A stretch of DNA of 64,000 bases from an uncultured Clostridia bacterium (GTDB lineage: Bacteria > Bacillota > Clostridia > TANB77 > CAG-508): positions 13,374 through 77,373 of the forward strand of contig CAKPQL010000003.1 of assembly GCA_934178555.1 (NCBI GenBank). The letters are read 5' to 3'. Positions 13,249-37,724 of the stretch are shown piece by piece. The first letter of the stretch is position 1. Each line of letters starts with the position of its first letter. The translations under genes and the position numbers were made by a program. Below the pieces are notes generated by a model. It saw nothing but the letters and a program-made list of their open reading frames with translations. It had not been told where the DNA came from and ran no database searches.

Positions 13249-13606
13249 TGGTGGAGATGAGGAGGTTCGAACTCCTGTCCAAATATTCTTCCATATTAAC
13301 TTCTACGAGTGTAGTTTATTTTTTACATTCCCTTAAATTAGCGTTAATAAACAAACTCTAATTTTTAGTAGCCTTTAAAATACCTACTACTTCCAAGGCA
13401 AAAGTAGCTTTGTTTCCCACTCATTCGACGCCTTATTCATAACCGTGGGACTTTATGATAAGACGACACCGCAACTTAGGCAGCGTAAGCTAATTCTTCG
13501 TTATTAGCGTTTACTTTTTTTCTCACATTTTTTAGGTGGCCAAGCGAGAAATCCACCACTCGCTATTAATACTTCTAAATATCTGTCGAAACCAAATACA
13601 TCCCCA
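13249..13606 (-). ncRNA. ssrA: tmRNA (ssrA)
   Basis: The minus strand starts GGGGATGTATTTGGTTTCGACAG (13606 downward) and ends ...GGACAGGAGTTCGAACCTCCTCATCTCCACCA at 13249. The internal tag ORF GCT AAT AAC GAA GAA TTA GCT TAC GCT GCC TAA encodes a tag ending ANNEELAYAA. Confidence 0.85.
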
Positions 13607-13734: not shown

Positions 13735-14871
13735 ATGAAAAAGATTTTACGGTTAGTTCTATCCTTTATTGCATCAATCTTATCTATATTGCTGTGTAGC
13801 TGTGCGAAAGTTCAAAGCATTTCCCCACAGTCAGCAATAAAAGAAACTCCTATTGAAACTACTACTTTAGTTTCAAATGATTCAGTTGTTTTTCAAACTG
13901 AATTCGGCACTTCTGTAATCGACTCGGTGGTTTCTGATATAAAATCTGCCAAGGCTTCTGCAGAAGTAAGCAACACTTTACAAGGCCAAACAAAAGAGAC
14001 AGAACTATCTACTACAGCAACACCAGAACCGGCTTTACCAATACGCACCCAAAATGGAATTGAAATTTGTATTGAGGATTCTGACTTTCAGATTTCAAAA
14101 AACTCAATCAAAAAGTTAAATTCCATATACACGACCTATTCTGGCACTAATATTGCGTGGGGTCTTTATTCTTTAAAAGATGATTCTTATATCTCTTTTA
14201 ACAAGGATACTGAATTTACCTCTTGTTCTACAATTAAAGTAGTATATTCTTTATACTGCTTAGAAAAAGTAAAAGAAGGTAAAGCCTCACTAGATGATGT
14301 GTTAGTATATGACAAGACAAAGCATCATTACAACTCAACCACAGCATCAAAGTCTACAATTGCAAAATTAGGTCGTTCAAAATTTACATTAAAGGAAGTT
14401 ATTTATTATACTTTATATGTAAGTGATAATGATGCCTACATGATGCTTCTTTATTATTTCGGTTTTGATGACTTTAATGACTATGTAGCTTCTTTGGGAA
14501 GTACTACAGAGTTAAGTTCTTCAATGCTTTATGGTCATGCAACTGTAGAAAACAGATCAAAAGAATGGAAACAGATTTATTCTTTCTATAACGAAGACGA
14601 TGAAGTTTCCGACTTCTTTAAGACGACTTTGTTAGACGCAAAATACGGATATATAGAAGAAGGTTTGGCATCTTTGGGTTATAATACTGCTCACAAAAGC
14701 GGTTGGTCAAACAAATATGGTGCTGCACATGACTGTGCAATAGTATATTCCGAAAACGGAGAATATTTGATGATTATCTTAACTCAAAAGTACAACTCCA
14801 AACCCCAGAGCGACTTAGTAAAAAAACTCGCTCCTGTTCTTGATGAAATTTGGTCAAATTCTAATTGTTAG
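13735..14871 (+). CDS. lipoprotein, class A beta-lactamase-like serine hydrolase
   Basis: The ATG at 13735 follows a GGAGG RBS. Lipobox LLCSC. Motifs S-T-I-K (SxxK), SDN (VSDNDAY) and KSG (HKSGWS) are in class A beta-lactamase order. Confidence 0.6.
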   Translation: MKKILRLVLSFIASILSILLCSCAKVQSISPQSAIKETPIETTTLVSNDSVVFQTEFGTSVIDSVVSDIKSAKASAEVSNTLQGQTKETELSTTATPEPALPIRTQNGIEICIEDSDFQISKNSIKKLNSIYTTYSGTNIAWGLYSLKDDSYISFNKDTEFTSCSTIKVVYSLYCLEKVKEGKASLDDVLVYDKTKHHYNSTTASKSTIAKLGRSKFTLKEVIYYTLYVSDNDAYMMLLYYFGFDDFNDYVASLGSTTELSSSMLYGHATVENRSKEWKQIYSFYNEDDEVSDFFKTTLLDAKYGYIEEGLASLGYNTAHKSGWSNKYGAAHDCAIVYSENGEYLMIILTQKYNSKPQSDLVKKLAPVLDEIWSNSNC

Positions 14872-34099: not shown

Positions 34100-34802
34100 T
34101 ACATTTTGCTAAATCACTGTTTCCTGTTTTTACTATTTTTCCATTTACTAAAACATGTACATAGTCAACATTTAAGTGTTTTAATATACGAGTGTTGTGA
34201 GTTATAATTAATACTGCATTTTCATTTGTTTTGTACATTTCAATACCTTTTGATACTGTCCTTATTGCGTCTACATCTAAGCCTGAATCAGTCTCGTCCA
34301 ATATTGCCAATTTAGGATTTAGCACAAGCATTTGCAATATTTCATTCTTCTTCTTTTCTCCTCCAGAGAATCCAACATTCAAATCTCTTTCTACTAATTT
34401 TGGATTCATGTTTAACTCTTCTATATATTTATTTACTTGCTCTTTAAATTCAAATATTTTTACTGGTTGATTTGTAACTTTGTTTTTTGTATATTTTAAA
34501 AAGTTCATTCCTGTAATACCTGGTATTTCTTCTGGTAATTGGAATGACATAAAAATACCTTTTTTAGCTATTTTATCTGTTGTCAAATCATTTATATTTT
34601 CTCCTTCAAACTCTACTTTTCCACTTTGTTTGCTATATTCTGGATTATTTAATATTACATTTGCAAGTGTTGATTTTCCAGCTCCATTTGGTCCCATAAT
34701 AACATGAACTTCACCTTTATTTATTCTTAAATTTAATCCTTTTAATATCTCTTTTTCTCCTGCATTAACATATAAATCTTTTATTTCTAATAATGTATCC
34801 AT
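34068..34802 (-). CDS. sufC: Fe-S cluster assembly ATPase SufC
   Basis: Walker A GPNGAGKST, ABC signature LNVGFSGGEKKK, Walker B ILDETDSGLD. Confidence 0.9.
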   Translation of the reverse strand: MDTLLEIKDLYVNAGEKEILKGLNLRINKGEVHVIMGPNGAGKSTLANVILNNPEYSKQSGKVEFEGENINDLTTDKIAKKGIFMSFQLPEEIPGITGMNFLKYTKNKVTNQPVKIFEFKEQVNKYIEELNMNPKLVERDLNVGFSGGEKKKNEILQMLVLNPKLAILDETDSGLDVDAIRTVSKGIEMYKTNENAVLIITHNTRILKHLNVDYVHVLVNGKIVKTGNSDLAKCIEEEGYEQYK

Positions 34803-34903
34803 CTAATTATTCTCCTATCATATATTATTGTTTTCATACCAATTAAGTAGGAATTATATCATATATTTCCTATATAGTCAACTTAAACCACCTTATGCTA
34901 TTA

Positions 34904-35302
34904 CTATTTTAAGAAGTCTGCCAAAGTTTTGCTATCCACATAATCATTTATTGTTTTATCTAAACCTTCCCAAAACGAATATGTAACGCAATCTGTTTTC
35001 TTATTGCATGTACCATCTTCTGATAAACATATTATTGGTGCTAAATCACCTTCTGTAGCCCTTAAAATATCTCCAATTTTGTATTCTTCTGGTTTCTTTA
35101 TTAATTTATATCCACCATTGTTTCCTCTAGCTGTTTGTAGATACCCCGCTTTATTAAGTAAAGCAACTATTTGCTCTAAATATTTCATTGATACATCTTG
35201 TCTTTTAGCAATATCTTTTAAAGAAATAAATGTTCCTTTATTGTTCAATGCTAAATCTATCATTATTCTTAATGCATATCTTCCCTTTGATGATACTATC
35301 AT
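34904..35302 (-). CDS. Rrf2 family transcriptional regulator (IscR/SufR-like), head of the suf operon
   Basis: 132 aa. SKGRYALRIMIDLA wHTH N-terminus and Cys-containing C-terminal region. Confidence 0.8.
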   Translation of the reverse strand: MIVSSKGRYALRIMIDLALNNKGTFISLKDIAKRQDVSMKYLEQIVALLNKAGYLQTARGNNGGYKLIKKPEEYKIGDILRATEGDLAPIICLSEDGTCNKKTDCVTYSFWEGLDKTINDYVDSKTLADFLK

Positions 35303-35443
35303 ATTATCTCCTCCAATATTTTTATTATACTACTAAATTGGTAGGAATTACAAGTCATTATCGATTATTTGGCAAATTTTATTGTTTATGCTATAATAAA
35401 TTATGTTAGTATTAACTAAAATTTATTTTTGGAGGAAACTTCT

Positions 35444-36238
35444 ATGACTAATATTTATCCCGCTCTTTCTTATTACCATGAGGCTAATCGGTACGATGTA
35501 GTTTTCGCCGAAGAACCTCTCCTTGGCAAAAAGCGGCACATTGAAAATGTAATGCGTCTTGGTGTATCAATTGCTAATGCTCAAAATTTGTCGCTTGATA
35601 ACTTTCTTCTTTTAGCATGTTTGGAGCACCATGACGACGGTCGTGCAGACCAGTATCGACTCTTAGGAAAATTCTGGGATACGGAAGTATCTCACAATGT
35701 TCTTGGCATTGACAGACTCGATAAATTTCTTCAGCATAATAATCTGAAAGTTGACAAGGGCATCGAAATCTTGCGTCAGGTTATGTTGTATCACGGTCGA
35801 GTTCATCTTCTTGCTAATGTTTCAGGCGAGACTAAAGCATATGTAGAGTTGGTTACTGCTGCAGACGACTTTGAAAACGCCTGCTCATGCGTTAGCTACC
35901 TTGTAAAAGAGGTGGAAAATGATGAAAAAGGTTATTTAAAAAACAACCCAAATGCAGACCAGCTTACAGTTTCAGACTATGTTTTCTTTCACTTTAAGAG
36001 TGGAGAAAAGTTCGACAAGATGGTATGGTGTCACACCTATGCCGAGTATGTACTCTTTGCTGCAACACTTGCTACAAACTGTATCAAAAAATACGGTAAC
36101 ATCGCAAAAGTTGCACTCTCGCAACCGGGATATGGCTATTCCTCGATACTCGATGGATACCATGATGTTTTTGAAAAAACATTGAGTCCTAAAATGGTGG
36201 AAGATGCATATAACATCATTTCATCTATGGTTGAATAG
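35444..36238 (+). CDS. hypothetical protein with HD-domain-like motifs; compositionally foreign (about 40% GC)
   Basis: ATG at 35444 after a GGAGG RBS (35431-35435). Motifs ...RH...LEHHDDGR...H...H...D are consistent with HD phosphohydrolase His/Asp spacing. Uses CGG, CGT, GCC, CTC codons that are rare or absent in neighbouring genes. Confidence 0.5.
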   Translation: MTNIYPALSYYHEANRYDVVFAEEPLLGKKRHIENVMRLGVSIANAQNLSLDNFLLLACLEHHDDGRADQYRLLGKFWDTEVSHNVLGIDRLDKFLQHNNLKVDKGIEILRQVMLYHGRVHLLANVSGETKAYVELVTAADDFENACSCVSYLVKEVENDEKGYLKNNPNADQLTVSDYVFFHFKSGEKFDKMVWCHTYAEYVLFAATLATNCIKKYGNIAKVALSQPGYGYSSILDGYHDVFEKTLSPKMVEDAYNIISSMVE

Positions 36239-36256
36239 TTCTAACCATACTCCATC

Positions 36257-36291
36257 AGCATACAGCATTTAATTGCTGTATGTTTTTTTAT
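36257..36291 (+). terminator. rho-independent terminator after the foreign gene
   Basis: gcatacagc atttaatt gctgtatg followed by ttttttta. Confidence 0.6.
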
Positions 36292-36337
36292 ATAAAAAAA
36301 GCAGATTATTTATGAGGCTGCTGAAAAAGTAGCCTCA

Positions 36338-36787
36338 TTATTTATCTGCCTTTTTAAATACGAATAATTTACTTAAAATATAATTTCCTACAATCACTAC
36401 TACTTGTGAAATTAATGTAAATATTACAACATATAAATTAGAATTTAGCCCAAGCAATGTAACGAAAAACCACATTATAATCATTTCCATAATTAGAGTA
36501 GTAATTCTAGCTACAACAAAACTACTAAATTCTTTTAATTTATTTTGATTTTTACTTTCAAACACAAAATTTCTATTAGTAAAATATGCAAATAAAACTG
36601 CTGCAACCCATGATATAATTACTGCTATTTGTAATTGTACGGCATTACTTGCTTCTAATACTGTAAACAGCAAAGCATATTTTACTCCTAAACTTACAAC
36701 TGTAGCTAATACACCAAATATCAAATATAATATTATTTCTTTGTATTTTTTATATAACTCTAATAATTTATTCATTTTATTCCCCAT
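36338..36787 (-). CDS. GtrA family polysaccharide-biosynthesis membrane protein
   Basis: 149 aa with 4 TM helices, GtrA-like. Confidence 0.7.
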   Translation of the reverse strand: MGNKMNKLLELYKKYKEIILYLIFGVLATVVSLGVKYALLFTVLEASNAVQLQIAVIISWVAAVLFAYFTNRNFVFESKNQNKLKEFSSFVVARITTLIMEMIIMWFFVTLLGLNSNLYVVIFTLISQVVVIVGNYILSKLFVFKKADK

Positions 36788-37724
36788 CTTCTTTTAATTC
36801 CTTTAATTTATCTAAATACTCTGTATACTTCATTTCAAAATCCTGCTTAGACTTTCTACTAACTGTATCTAATATTAGGCCACCAAAGAATGATTGTATT
36901 GCACATATATAAAAGAATATTGATGCAATAAATGACGGAATCTTTGGTACTAGTCCTGATTTAACATAATCTATTATAACTGGAGTCAAGAATCCAGAAC
37001 CTATTATAAATAGCACTAATGCTAACCACATAAAAAATGATAAAGGTCTATAGTTTTTGTATAACGAAACAATAGTTTTTAACACTTTAAATCCATCCGA
37101 ATACGTATTTAGTTTTGAAGAACTTCCCTCTGGTCTATCTTGATATTCAATTATTACATTTTTTGCAAATAAATTTTTGTCTAATGTATGGATTGTCATT
37201 TCAGTTTCAATTTCAAATCCTTTTGATAATACAGGGAAAGTCTTTACAAAGCAATAACTGAATGCTCTATACCCAGTCATAACATCTCTAATATTACTCT
37301 TGTATATAAAATTAATTAATCCTCTAACTAAAACGTTTCCAAAATTATGAAATGGTCTTTTATTTTCTGTAAAATAAGTAGACGAAAGTCTATCTCCAAT
37401 TACCATATCTACTTTATCATTTAATACTAAATTTACCATTTCTCTTGCGCTTGATGAAGGATACGTATCATCTCCATCTGTCATTATATAACATTCTGCA
37501 TCGATTTCCCTAAACATTCTTTTTATAACATTACCTTTTCCTTGCTTCTTTTCATATCTAACTATAGCTCCTGCATTCCTTGCAATTTCATCAGTTCCGT
37601 CTGTTGAATTATTATCATATACATAAATAACAGCTTCTGGTAAATCTCTTTTAAAATCTTCAATTACTTTTCTTATTGTTTTTGATTCATTATAACAAGG
37701 TATTAATACCGCTATCTTATCCAT
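36777..37724 (-). CDS. family 2 glycosyltransferase (GtrB / dolichyl-phosphate sugar transferase-like)
   Basis: LIPCYNE...YDNNSTDGT...DGDD GT2 motifs plus a C-terminal TM segment. Confidence 0.85.
   Translation of the reverse strand: MDKIAVLIPCYNESKTIRKVIEDFKRDLPEAVIYVYDNNSTDGTDEIARNAGAIVRYEKKQGKGNVIKRMFREIDAECYIMTDGDDTYPSSSAREMVNLVLNDKVDMVIGDRLSSTYFTENKRPFHNFGNVLVRGLINFIYKSNIRDVMTGYRAFSYCFVKTFPVLSKGFEIETEMTIHTLDKNLFAKNVIIEYQDRPEGSSSKLNTYSDGFKVLKTIVSLYKNYRPLSFFMWLALVLFIIGSGFLTPVIIDYVKSGLVPKIPSFIASIFFYICAIQSFFGGLILDTVSRKSKQDFEMKYTEYLDKLKELKEDGE

What the first reader, a model, noticed from the sequence alone, without database searches (positions are those of the whole stretch)
35336..36300. 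Single-gene GC-rich island (about 40% vs about 25% GC) encoding an HD-motif protein, inserted between the suf operon regulator and the polysaccharide cluster
The 264-aa ORF uses CGG (twice in-frame), CGT, GCC, CTC and similar codons that are essentially absent from neighbouring genes. It has its own strong RBS and a strong terminator. Motifs RH...LEHHDDGR...H...H...D fit the His/Asp metal-site spacing of HD phosphohydrolases, but the rest has no obvious family. Stand-alone HD hydrolases acquired horizontally are frequently nucleotide-signalling or anti-phage effectors. If CGG is non-decodable in this host (see the first finding), this gene could not be translated as written, which would date the acquisition as recent or make it silent.
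Basis: partly seen in the sequence, partly recalled or inferred. Interest (0 to 1): 0.55.

Follow-up and report, generated by a model that had tools for sequence, protein, structure and literature searches.

The report
GC-rich stand-alone HD hydrolase gene
A single, actively maintained gene for a metal-dependent HD-type phosphoesterase of unknown substrate sits as a GC-rich foreign-looking island in a very AT-rich gut Clostridia genome; it is an old, not a recent, acquisition, and oddly its relatives are GC-rich in almost every host genome that carries them.

Summary
Window 35444-36238 (+) encodes a 264-aa protein with 39.9% GC and GC3 0.36. The other 47 ORFs average 27.7% GC and GC3 0.15 (codon-usage z = -7.9). 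The gene has a near-consensus promoter, a GGAGG RBS and a terminator of its own.

The protein belongs to the HD superfamily. It has the full H/HD/H/H/D two-metal ligand set. Its small family (about 113 clusters, uncultured gut Clostridia) aligns over its full length with a widespread, uncharacterised ~265-aa HD/HDIG family (hhalign 99.6%). The AlphaFold model is confident (pLDDT 96.7) but matches no solved structure significantly.

The 'recent or silent' idea fails. The gene is fixed in conspecific strains and shared at the same locus with a sister species (dS 0.92, like its neighbours). It is under purifying selection (dN/dS 0.14). One CGG encodes a near-invariant Arg.

Horizontal origin is supported. 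Lineages with Rrf2 79-88% identical lack the gene, and the family sits in at least 12 different housekeeping contexts. Two findings are unexpected. The gene is GC-enriched in 21 of 27 loci. At shared loci it is more diverged than its flanks in three of four groups, which suggests allele swapping. A defence role is unproven: there are only weak Cas3-HD-like matches and no cas genes or defence neighbours.

The parts
35444..36238 (+). CDS of the 264-aa HD-superfamily protein (stop codon included); the GC-rich segment
   Evidence: ORF and translation. GC 0.399 and GC3 0.364 against host 0.277 and 0.147. Pfam HD E 0.0094 spanning profile positions 4-115 of 116. Family alignment A1. AF2 model pLDDT 96.7.
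35627..35644 (+). Codons for H62-H63-D64-D65-G66-R67. This is HD motif II, the HDIG-like signature 'HHDDGR', and carries metal ligands for both metal sites.
   Evidence: Invariant or nearly invariant in 45 family sequences. Aligned to 'HDIGR' of family A2. Two-site scheme of HD motifs I-V from PMC3727216.
35369..35397 (+). The gene's own sigma-70-type promoter, TTGGCA-17-TATAAT, with TG extended -10
   Evidence: Consensus scan, 11 of 12 matches. An equivalent TTAACA-17-TGnTATAAT is present in the sister species L003 (read from the sequences printed).
35431..35435 (+). Ribosome-binding site GGAGG, 8 nt upstream of the ATG
   Evidence: Sequence.
36257..36292 (+). Intrinsic terminator of the HD gene (11-bp stem, then T-run)
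   Evidence: Terminator scan; inverted repeat I13.
36295..36355 (.). Second long hairpin (28-nt arms) between the HD gene and the convergent GtrA gene; a likely bidirectional terminator
   Evidence: Inverted repeat I1; terminator scan. Only sub-threshold Rfam matches here.
35324..35353 (-). Promoter of the divergent Rrf2 gene with an operator-like palindrome (35330-35347). This is host sequence marking the left edge of the lineage-specific segment. It lies 16 nt from the HD -35 box.
   Evidence: Promoter scan. The motif CTTGYAATTCCTAC..TTAGTAGTATAAT is conserved in lineages that lack the HD gene. A second copy lies at 34833-34850 in front of sufC (I3).
34904..35302 (-). Neighbour: Rrf2-family regulator heading the suf operon (host-like composition)
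   Evidence: Pfam PF02082 on the identical contig L001; GC3 0.174.
36338..36787 (-). Neighbour: GtrA-like membrane protein, last gene of the polysaccharide cluster (host-like composition)
   Evidence: Pfam PF04138 on L001; GC3 0.141.

Best explanation
The gene encodes a functional, stand-alone HD-superfamily metallo-phosphoesterase. It belongs to a divergent clade, restricted to gut Clostridia, of a widespread and uncharacterised ~265-aa HD/HDIG family.

Inferred mechanism:
- H32, H63-D64 and D141 form metal site 1. D64, H84 and H117 form metal site 2.
- The two-metal centre activates water to cleave a phosphoester bond of a nucleotide or nucleic-acid substrate.
- That substrate is held by conserved basic and aromatic residues (K29, R67, Q70, K192, Y133, Y152, Y199, Y202), many of them in a family-specific helical C-terminal half.

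Expression: it is transcribed as a monocistronic mRNA from its own strong promoter, back to back with the Rrf2/suf promoter.

Evolution: it is an accessory gene of horizontal origin that entered a synteny breakpoint beside the suf operon. This happened in the common ancestor of this species and its sister species, so it is old rather than recent. It has been kept under purifying selection. Across the family, divergent alleles appear to be exchanged among related low-GC Clostridia by recombination in conserved core flanks. That exchange, with incomplete amelioration, keeps most copies GC-richer than their hosts.

Shown: the ORF, its composition, expression signals, conservation, HD homology, presence/absence pattern, and dN/dS.
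Inferred: metal chemistry, substrate class, allele exchange, and the cause of the GC excess.
For: HD membership:
- Pfam HD spans the whole profile (E 0.0094), and 19 of 45 family members hit HD (best 4.5e-7).
- H32, H62, D64, D65, G66, R67, H84, H117 and D141 are invariant.
- hhalign of A1 against the bona fide Pfam-HD/HDIG family A2 gives 99.6%, E 4e-24, over 236 columns.
- A2 hits the di-iron HD protein 2pq7 at E 1.9e-5. The two-site metal scheme is described in PMC3727216.
- The AF2 model is all-helical with pLDDT 96.7. The top Foldseek hits are HD enzymes (2qgs probability 0.96; phage phosphohydrolase probability 0.98), though not significant.

Functional and expressed:
- Promoter, RBS and terminator are present.
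- dN/dS is 0.14 against the sister species.
- The gene is intact in 12 conspecific contigs.
- CGG encodes the conserved R16.

Horizontal origin:
- Codon z = -7.9.
- The gene is absent beside Rrf2 in lineages with 79-88% identical Rrf2.
- There are at least 12 distinct housekeeping contexts.
- The orientation is inverted at the same WecG-DnaJ locus in L006 versus L013.

Allele exchange: in three of the four shared-locus groups the HD gene is clearly more diverged than its flanks.
- dS 0.60-0.64 against 0.13-0.36.
- Saturated against 0.55-1.0.
- 39-51% aa identity against 85-91% at the TrpRS-L27 locus.
- In the fourth group (window versus L003) HD dS 0.92 is similar to Rrf2 0.90 and above SufC 0.50 and SufB 0.64.

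Amelioration exists: L016, L021 and L031 carry intact copies with host-like GC.

Translational selection is excluded: DnaK and L27 have GC3 of 0.08-0.15.
Against: - No enzymatic or expression data exist.
- The window protein itself scores below Pfam's HD cutoff (16.7 against 22 bits).
- No solved or viral structure matches significantly (best E 0.54 and 0.066, TM below 0.5).
- No GC-richer donor or reservoir genome was found. All 18 GTDB hosts and all metagenomic flanks are low-GC.
- There are no hits in the phage, plasmid or IMG/VR collections.
- No integrase, transposase, tRNA or flanking repeats mark the insertion.
- Synonymous sites are saturated between most family members, yet GC3 stays high in 21 of 27 loci.
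- On short branches GC loss per site is lower than the flank regime predicts (5 of 18 changes S>W against about 56% expected). Both observations fit a GC-maintaining force at least as well as transfer followed by decay.
- A locally raised mutation rate, for example from head-on orientation, could also inflate dS.
Confidence: 0.65

Rival explanations
1. The GC excess is not a relic of transfer. It is actively maintained in this gene family inside AT-rich hosts, either by GC-biased gene conversion linked to frequent recombination at this gene or by selection on its nucleotide composition. Horizontal exchange may still occur but is not the cause.
For: - The gene is GC3-enriched by more than 0.10 in 21 of 27 distinct loci, although synonymous sites are saturated (pS 0.7-0.9) among most members.
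- At the TrpRS-HD-L27 locus the position is conserved across lineages with flank dS of about 0.8, and HD GC3 stays at 0.31-0.45.
- No GC-rich donor was found.
- On short branches only 5 of 18 polarised third-position changes are S>W, against about 56% expected from the per-site rates of flanking genes.
- dS is elevated together with GC, as expected for a recombination hotspot.
- GC3 enrichment is uniform along the gene.
Against: - Three lineages (L016, L021, L031/L032) keep intact family members with fully host-like GC, so high GC is not required.
- The polarisation test has only 18 events, and the same raw W>S excess appears in the flanks, so parsimony bias is large.
- Highly expressed genes have lower, not higher, GC3, so no translational benefit is evident.
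- An A2-family homologue in C. butyricum is host-like in composition.
Confidence: 0.2
2. The protein is a single-gene conflict or anti-phage system: a stand-alone Cas3/Cas10-type HD nuclease, or a nucleotide-depleting HD enzyme. Its divergent alleles are kept and swapped by frequency-dependent selection.
For: - 39 of 45 family members weakly match the PADLOC Cas3b model (best E 1.5e-7). 46 of 50 members of the sister family A2 match Cas3-HD (best 8.5e-9) and 19 of 50 match Cas10. NCBIfam cas3_HD gives sub-threshold hits.
- The gene is stand-alone and self-expressed, with a patchy distribution.
- dN is 3-10 times that of its neighbours, and alleles at shared loci are older than their flanks.
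- Two genomes carry disrupted copies (L024, L030).
Against: - The window protein has no PADLOC hit even at E = 1 or 10. The other matches are weak and limited to what is presumably the shared HD core.
- No cas genes, CRISPR array, helicase or other defence genes occur in any of at least 12 contexts.
- Neighbours are housekeeping genes, not defence islands.
- The gene is fixed, not variable, within the species and clades sampled.
- dN/dS is 0.14-0.16, which indicates ordinary purifying selection and not diversifying selection.
- There are no phage homologues or counter-defence context.
Confidence: 0.12
3. The gene is a recent acquisition that is silent or untranslatable in this host because it uses CGG and other codons the host cannot decode.
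For: CGG is extremely rare in host genes (3 of 17,689 codons), and one of the three is in another compositional outlier. No tRNA genes are in the window to check.
Against: - dS to the sister-species copy at the same locus is 0.92, equal to neighbouring Rrf2 (0.90). dN/dS is 0.14.
- The ORF is intact in all 12 conspecific contigs.
- CGG encodes near-invariant R16 and is retained as CGG in both species.
- CGG also occurs in two ordinary host genes.
- The promoter and RBS are conserved in the sister species.
Confidence: 0.02
4. The protein is an HD-domain mixed-valent di-iron oxygenase (like PhnZ, TmpB or MIOX) rather than a hydrolase, perhaps tied to iron and Fe-S homeostasis through its position beside the Rrf2/suf promoter.
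For: - The six-ligand set H/HD/H/H/D is the one used by di-iron HD oxygenases.
- A2 gives a weak TmpB hit (6npa, E 0.068) and a sub-threshold TmpB NCBIfam hit.
- The promoter is divergent from the Rrf2 operator in the window and in L003.
Against: - The same ligand set is used by many hydrolytic HD enzymes, including YqeK, PgpH, HD-GYP and Cas3 (my knowledge).
- No partner dioxygenase or phosphonate genes occur in any context.
- The suf adjacency is confined to two species.
- The hosts look like strict anaerobes, with [FeFe]-hydrogenase, anaerobic NrdD and radical-SAM neighbours, which makes O2-dependent chemistry unlikely.
Confidence: 0.04

Closest known systems
Uncharacterised ~265-aa HD/HDIG family (alignment A2). 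Public annotations are generic: 'HD domain-containing protein', 'metal-dependent phosphohydrolase', 'putative nucleotidyltransferase with HDIG domain'. Examples: Methanosarcina siciliae, Methanococcoides burtonii, C. butyricum megaplasmid WP_002581562.1.
   Same: Same length and single-domain architecture. Homologous over the full length, including the C-terminal half (hhalign 99.6%, E 4e-24, 236 columns). Same conserved K, H, HD-x-G-R-x-x-Q, D, H, H and D positions. Also stand-alone genes.
   Different: Only about 17% identity. The window's clade has HHDDGR instead of HDIGR, YHGR instead of HN..LP, and AADDFEN instead of RDADKLD. It mostly fails the Pfam and TIGR thresholds that A2 passes. 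It is confined to low-GC uncultured gut Clostridia and is GC-enriched there, whereas the C. butyricum A2 gene is host-like.
PDB 2PQ7, 'predicted HD superfamily hydrolase' (structural genomics, di-iron site); also 2QGS (SE1688) and YpgQ (5DQV/5IHY)
   Same: HD core with both metal sites. 2PQ7 is the best solved match of the A2 profile (E 1.9e-5). 2QGS is the best Foldseek hit of the model (probability 0.96).
   Different: No significant direct match (Foldseek E 0.54, TM 0.45; the A1 profile finds no HD chain in the PDB). Those proteins are 200-225 aa and lack this family's C-terminal helical half. Their own functions are mostly unknown.
Cas3'' / Cas3 HD and Cas10 HD nuclease domains of CRISPR-Cas types I and III
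   Same: They give the best named sequence similarity of the HD core. 39 of 45 A1 members hit PADLOC Cas3b, and 46 of 50 A2 members hit Cas3-HD. The motif pattern is HD-x-G-[KR]...Q, H, (H)HG, D. The size is close to stand-alone Cas3'' proteins (my knowledge).
   Different: All matches are weak and below curated cutoffs (TIGR01596 reaches at most 32 bits against a cutoff of 43). The window protein itself does not match. No Cas3' helicase, Cascade genes or CRISPR array is nearby in any context.
HD-GYP and other HD cyclic-nucleotide phosphodiesterases (PmGH 4MCW, PA4781 4R8Z, V-cGAP3 5Z7C)
   Same: Multi-His HD metal centre. Weak profile and fold hits.
   Different: There is no GYP motif at the expected place after the HD core, no receiver or sensor domain, and the hits cover only motifs I-II.
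Classical genomic islands (integrase-borne, tRNA- or tmRNA-associated)
   Same: Compositional deviation from the host, lineage-specific presence, and a position at a synteny breakpoint.
   Different: It is a single gene with no integrase, transposase, direct repeats or tRNA. It is GC-richer than the host, whereas by my knowledge most acquired genes are AT-richer. It is old and fixed, not strain-variable.

Membership tests
HD superfamily (Pfam PF01966) | Conserved H...HD...D metal-binding motif in an all-alpha core | tested here: met
   H32, H63-D64 and D141 are invariant or nearly invariant in 45 sequences, plus H84 and H117 for a second site. The model is all-helical.
HD superfamily (Pfam PF01966) | Score above Pfam's gathering threshold (22 bits) | tested here: not met
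   The window protein scores 16.7 bits, E 0.0094, although the match spans profile positions 4-115 of 116. 19 of 45 family members match at E <= 1, with a best of 4.5e-7. Five homologues carry a precomputed PF01966 label. Membership therefore rests on profile-profile evidence.
HD superfamily (Pfam PF01966) | Significant structural similarity to solved HD-domain proteins | tested here: inconclusive
HDIG subfamily (TIGR00277) | HD-[IV]-G-[KR] signature and a score above the 27.6-bit cutoff | tested here: not met
   The motif here is HDDGR (D replaces I/V), and the window protein has no NCBIfam hit at E <= 10. Sister family A2 members do pass (33-42 bits).
Cas3'' / Cas3 HD nuclease (TIGR01596, PADLOC Cas3 models) | Score above the family cutoff | tested here: not met
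   The window protein has no hit. Family members hit Cas3b only weakly (best 1.5e-7). A2 members reach at most 32 bits against a 43.45-bit cutoff.
Cas3'' / Cas3 HD nuclease (TIGR01596, PADLOC Cas3 models) | Encoded in a cas operon, with a Cas3' helicase or Cascade genes, next to a CRISPR array | tested here: not met
   No cas genes occur in any of at least 12 contexts, and the window has no CRISPR-like array.
HD-GYP phosphodiesterases | GYP motif downstream of the HD core | tested here: not met
   The alignment shows no conserved GYP at that position. The only G-Y strings are KGY (162-164) and PGYGY (about 229-233), both in the C-terminal half.
Known anti-phage defence systems (PADLOC-DB v2) | Match to a defence-protein model and a defence-island neighbourhood | tested here: not met
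   The window protein has no match. The neighbours are suf, polysaccharide and other housekeeping genes.
Horizontally acquired gene (genomic islet) | Composition and codon usage deviate from the host | tested here: met
   GC is 4.4 sd and GC3 is 8 sd above the other ORFs. The codon log-likelihood z is -7.9.
Horizontally acquired gene (genomic islet) | Absent from the homologous site in related lineages | tested here: met
   Present in conspecifics and in the sister species L003. Absent upstream of Rrf2 in L034 (88% Rrf2 identity), L035 (80%) and L036/L037 (79%).
Horizontally acquired gene (genomic islet) | Mobility signatures (integrase or transposase, flanking repeats, tRNA target) or an identifiable donor | tested here: not met
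   None were found. There are no relatives in the phage, plasmid or IMG/VR collections. No GC-rich host genome was found.
Two-metal HD phosphoesterase (catalytic mechanism) | Metal binding and phosphoester hydrolysis | not testable with these tools
   Inferred only from the conserved ligands and from the literature on HD motifs I-V (PMC3727216).

The most novel reading that the evidence does not exclude
The family is a previously unrecognised kind of roaming single-gene cassette in gut Clostridia. It would be a Cas3-like stand-alone HD nuclease or nucleotidase that sits between conserved core genes. Deeply divergent alleles would be swapped across species by recombination in the flanks, as in defence hotspots. 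Its synonymous GC content would be held well above the host's by that recombination (GC-biased conversion) or by selection. It would then be both a new conflict or defence gene and a natural example of a gene that resists amelioration.
Probability: 0.12. Interest if true: 0.65.

Novelty: new member of a known kind. Interest (0 to 1): 0.38.

Why it matters
For annotation, the result turns a 'hypothetical protein' of uncultured human and animal gut Clostridia into a confidently assigned two-metal HD phosphoesterase. It also links a small orphan clade to a very large (more than 4,000 clusters), still uncharacterised ~265-aa HD family found in bacteria and archaea. One biochemical study could therefore name thousands of proteins.

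For evolution, the case corrects a common shortcut: a sharp compositional island is not necessarily recent. This one predates a speciation event, is fixed and is under constraint. It also raises a specific, testable puzzle. Why does one gene family stay 10-15 GC points above nearly every AT-rich genome that carries it, while being more diverged than its flanks at most of the loci it shares? The candidate answers are hidden donors, allele swapping, and GC-biased conversion.

Tried and rejected
- Sequence searches with the window protein against NCBIfam, PADLOC and PHROGs gave nothing useful. Searches of the PDB with the single sequence and with the family profile found no HD chain.
- Looking for a mobile vector: tblastn against 50,697 phage and 72,556 plasmid records and a pattern scan of IMG/VR found no relatives. 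No flanking direct or inverted repeats, integrase or tRNA were found.
- Rfam scan of 34800-36900 gave only two sub-threshold chance hits on the terminator hairpins, so no riboswitch or sRNA is involved.
- Possible paralogue: a second ~264-aa ORF without Pfam hits in L009, L011 and L012 is an unrelated lysine-rich, AT-rich protein.
- Polarised substitution test. The raw W>S excess in the HD gene (13:5, or 18:7 with a saturated outgroup) looked like GC gain. The same procedure on host-like flanks gave 40:14, so the raw excess is mostly a parsimony artefact. Only the per-site comparison remains suggestive, with n = 18.
- Conspecific strains are about 99.9% identical, with only 2 differences in the gene. 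That is too few for any population test.
- Translational-selection explanation was rejected because DnaK, L27 and ribosomal protein genes have the lowest GC3.
- Conserved-partner hypothesis was rejected. The small GC-rich ORFs beside the gene in L013, L018, L025 and L039 have no Pfam hits where scanned, and they occur in only a few loci. I did not test them for homology to one another.
- Context of the broader A2 family in C. butyricum (ThiT, Cof-type HAD hydrolase, MurR) gave no functional clue.
- Literature searches found only structural mentions of 2PQ7 and nothing on this family.
Full report
**1. The observation**

Window 35444-36238 (+) is an intact 264-codon ORF. The mechanical ORF list starts at a TTG at 35429. 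The GGAGG at 35431-35435 lies 8 nt before the ATG at 35444, and all homologues begin at the corresponding Met, so the ATG is the start.

Its GC is 0.399 and its GC3 is 0.364. The 47 other ORFs of at least 120 aa in the window have GC 0.277 +/- 0.028 (max 0.339) and GC3 0.147 +/- 0.027 (max 0.270). Under host codon usage the gene's mean log-likelihood is 7.9 sd below the host mean. The GC step coincides with the CDS, because both intergenic regions are AT-rich.

The codon claims are largely right. In 17,689 host codons CGG occurs 3 times and CTC 5 times, against 2 and 6 times in this one gene. CGT (36) and GCC (40) are only rare in the host.

The gene has a near-consensus extended -10 promoter (TTGGCA-17-TG-TATAAT, 35369-35397). 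It also has a terminator at 36257-36284 with a T-run, and a second large hairpin at 36295-36355. It is the only + strand gene across more than 30 kb. It lies between the Rrf2 regulator that heads the suf operon and a GtrA/GT2/epimerase/WecG polysaccharide cluster.

**2. What the protein is**

Single-sequence searches are nearly blind.
- Pfam HD gives E 0.0094 and 16.7 bits, below the 22-bit cutoff, although the match spans profile positions 4-115 of 116.
- NCBIfam, PADLOC, PHROGs and the PDB give nothing.

The protein has a small family: 113 clusters at 90% identity among 5.8 billion proteins, all about 263 aa and unnamed. A no-index profile search finds only 37 clusters at 50% identity with E < 1e-30 among 1.8 billion proteins.

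A 45-sequence alignment (A1) shows these invariant positions: H32, H62, D64, D65, G66, R67, Q70, D79, H84, H117, Y133, D141 and N145. H63 is conserved in at least 90% of sequences. This is the five-motif H / HD / H / H / D pattern of two-metal HD domains. Site 1 comes from motifs I, II and V, and site 2 from motifs II, III and IV (PMC3727216).

More distant hits of the profile are ~260-aa proteins that pass Pfam HD and TIGR00277 HDIG. Aligned as A2, their consensus is K..H, HDIGRFEQ, D, NHA.LG, HN, RDADKLD. This corresponds motif by motif to A1. hhalign links the two families over 236 columns, C-terminal half included (99.6%, E 4e-24).

A2 is very large, with more than 4,180 clusters in bacteria and archaea, and is only generically annotated. 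Its best solved relative is the structural-genomics di-iron protein 2PQ7 (E 1.9e-5).

I therefore file the protein as a divergent member of the HD superfamily on profile and motif evidence. Its fold is remote from anything solved, and its C-terminal half is specific to the family.

**3. A lead on the type of HD domain**

Scanning every member against PADLOC gave a result the single sequence did not.
- 39 of 45 A1 members weakly match a Cas3b model (best E 1.5e-7). That is more than match generic Pfam HD (19 of 45).
- In A2, 46 of 50 members match Cas3-HD (best 8.5e-9) and 19 of 50 match Cas10.
- NCBIfam cas3_HD hits are sub-threshold.

The nearest named relatives of the HD core are therefore the CRISPR-type HD nuclease domains. 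No cas gene, helicase or CRISPR array is present in the window or in any related locus. This is a resemblance, not membership. It tilts the substrate guess towards nucleic acids or nucleotides but proves nothing.

**4. Is it recent or silent? No.**

- The identical protein occurs on contigs from several samples. A 1-aa variant occurs in eight more, including Hadza gut metagenomes. All have the same gene order and about 99.9% nucleotide identity over 20 kb.
- A 78%-identical homologue sits in the same divergent position next to Rrf2-sufC-sufB in a sister species (L003).
- Between the two species the HD gene has dS 0.92 and dN 0.125 (dN/dS 0.14). The neighbours have dS 0.90 (Rrf2), 0.50 (SufC) and 0.64 (SufB).
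- The gene was therefore already there in their common ancestor and has been under purifying selection since. The promoter is conserved too.
- One of the two CGG codons encodes R16, an Arg present in 22 of 25 family sequences, and it is CGG in both species. CGG also occurs in two ordinary host genes.

Nothing supports a non-decodable CGG. No tRNA gene lies in the window, so I could not check that directly.

**5. Is it of horizontal origin? Probably, but the story is family-wide.**

Lineages whose Rrf2 is 88%, 80% and 79% identical keep the Rrf2 promoter/operator (CTTGYAATTCCTAC..TTAGTAGTATAAT). Beyond it they have other genes: an RsmB-like gene, rpe, or a PBP. None has an HD gene. The site is a synteny breakpoint that the gene occupies in only two species.

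Across 18 GTDB species (all uncultured gut Clostridia MAGs) and further metagenomic loci, the family sits in at least 12 unrelated housekeeping neighbourhoods. These are:
- suf/Rrf2
- WecG-DnaJ
- PPDK/MBL-fold hydrolase
- [FeFe]-hydrogenase
- TrpRS/L27
- FtsZ/PHP
- M18 peptidase
- NFACT
- radical SAM
- CorA
- alanine racemase
- BcrAD/BadFG-type activase

In every case it is a lone gene. In roughly half of the loci it is opposite in orientation to both neighbours. At the WecG-DnaJ locus it is inverted between two species.

No integrase, transposase, repeats, tRNA, phage or plasmid relatives were found.

**6. Two unexpected regularities**

(a) The gene is GC-rich almost everywhere.
- Among 27 distinct loci with usable flanks, its GC3 exceeds the median flank GC3 by more than 0.10 in 21. 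The excess is 0.08-0.10 in 3 more, and 3 loci are host-like (L016, L021, L031).
- Synonymous sites are nevertheless saturated (pS 0.7-0.9) between most members.
- The enrichment is uniform along the gene.
- It is not translational selection, because DnaK and L27 have GC3 of 0.08-0.15.
- An A2 homologue in C. butyricum has host-like composition.

(b) Where two genomes share the locus, the HD gene is clearly more diverged than its flanks in three of the four groups, and similar to or modestly above them in the fourth.

| Comparison | HD gene | Flanks |
|---|---|---|
| Window vs L003 | dS 0.92 | dS 0.50-0.90 |
| L009 vs L012/L023 | dS 0.60-0.64 | dS 0.13-0.36 |
| L006 vs L013 | saturated | dS 0.55-1.0 |
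| L028 vs L029 | dS 0.68 | dS 0.07-0.34 |
| L026/L027 vs L028/L029 | 39-51% aa identity | TrpRS 85-91% aa identity |

The simplest reading is that divergent alleles are repeatedly swapped in through recombination in conserved core flanks. Hosts at the extreme low-GC end would then necessarily receive GC-richer DNA. These genomes do carry other scattered GC-rich single ORFs, some of them polymorphic between close relatives.

Two facts keep an alternative open. No GC-richer host of the family was found. On short branches the gene also loses GC less often than the per-site rates of its flanks predict (5 of 18 polarised third-position changes are S>W, against about 56% expected). That test is weak, because the raw W>S excess also appears in the flanks (40:14), which shows strong parsimony bias. 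A GC-maintaining force such as biased gene conversion or selection therefore remains a live rival, and the cause of the GC excess is unresolved.

**7. Mechanism, as far as it can be stated**

Shown:
- an expressed-looking, constrained, monocistronic gene
- a complete two-metal HD ligand set
- homology to a large HD/HDIG family

Inferred:
- a binuclear metal centre (Fe, Mn, Ni or Co) activates water to cleave a phosphoester
- conserved K29, R67, Q70 and K192 and several tyrosines, partly in the C-terminal helical half, bind a phosphate-bearing substrate that is most likely a nucleotide or nucleic acid
- the Rrf2 operator lies about 22 nt upstream of the HD -35 box and could couple expression to Fe-S status in this species, but that adjacency is confined to two species

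An oxygenase role is unlikely in what look like strict anaerobes. A defence role is possible but unsupported.

**8. Verdict**

'Horizontally acquired' is supported. 'Recent, silent, CGG-untranslatable' is refuted. 'Anti-phage effector' is unproven.

The protein is a new, divergent member of a known superfamily, so I score the novelty as modest. The family-wide GC excess and the excess divergence at shared loci are real, quantified oddities that deserve a proper phylogenomic test.

Noticed in passing
window 13249-13605 (-) and 13735-14871 (+): A tmRNA gene (tag ANNEELAYAA) lies directly beside the window's second compositional outlier. This is a 378-aa class-A beta-lactamase-family protein (Pfam Beta-lactamase2, E 9e-29) with GC 0.339, GC3 0.27 and one CGG codon. 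It may be another acquired gene at the classic ssrA integration site. No integrase was seen.
   Followed up: partly
window 35330-35347 and 34833-34850: An 18-nt operator-like sequence (TTCCTACCAATTTAGTAG) occurs twice in inverted orientation. One copy overlaps the Rrf2 promoter and the other lies in front of sufC. The motif is conserved upstream of Rrf2 in four other lineages. It is probably the Rrf2 binding site of the suf regulon.
   Followed up: partly
L019 308-946, 7736-8599; L018 6926-7231; L025 658-1320, 2274-3485, 6913-7356; L013 5451-5771; L016 5054-5860; L039 2908-3297; L044 2898-3173: The related low-GC Clostridia genomes contain many other scattered single ORFs with GC3 of 0.3-0.5, mostly without Pfam hits (one is AAA_33). 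Some lie right beside the HD gene. The AAA_33 gene and a 212-aa ORF are present in L009-L011 and L019 but absent at the same sites in L012 and L023. Single-gene GC-rich insertions therefore seem to be a general habit of these genomes.
   Followed up: partly
L009-L012 (PPDK-context genomes): Several housekeeping genes are called in two pieces: PPDK as 251 + 573 aa, peptidase M3 as 353 + 235 aa, and Rsm22 as two fragments. The same splits appear in independent assemblies, which suggests real frameshifts, pseudogenes or programmed events rather than assembly error.
   Followed up: no
L009 8887-9519 vs L012 8896-9528: The MBL-fold (Lactamase_B) gene immediately downstream of the HD gene is only 80% identical in protein between two genomes, although its dS is just 0.14 (dN/dS about 0.66). 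It evolves far faster at the protein level than its neighbours.
   Followed up: no
L024 5992-6792; L030 5992-6646: The HD gene is broken into two ORFs in two genomes (59 + 154 aa and 92 + 117 aa). L030 comes from a long-read assembly, so indel errors are possible. L024 may be a true pseudogene.
   Followed up: no
L006 8001-8801 vs L013 5986-6786: The HD gene lies between the same two landmarks (the WecG polysaccharide cluster and dnaJ) in two species, but in opposite orientation and with different extra genes (two Band_7 genes versus a 106-aa GC-rich ORF). This points to independent insertions or a cassette inversion at a hotspot.
   Followed up: partly
MT836374.1 10064-10747 (hit H10): A 10.7-kb unannotated 'Bacteriophage sp.' contig from human faeces encodes a relative of the broader A2 HD family (30% identity, E 3e-29) at its very end. 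It is the only phage-collection hit for either family.
   Followed up: no
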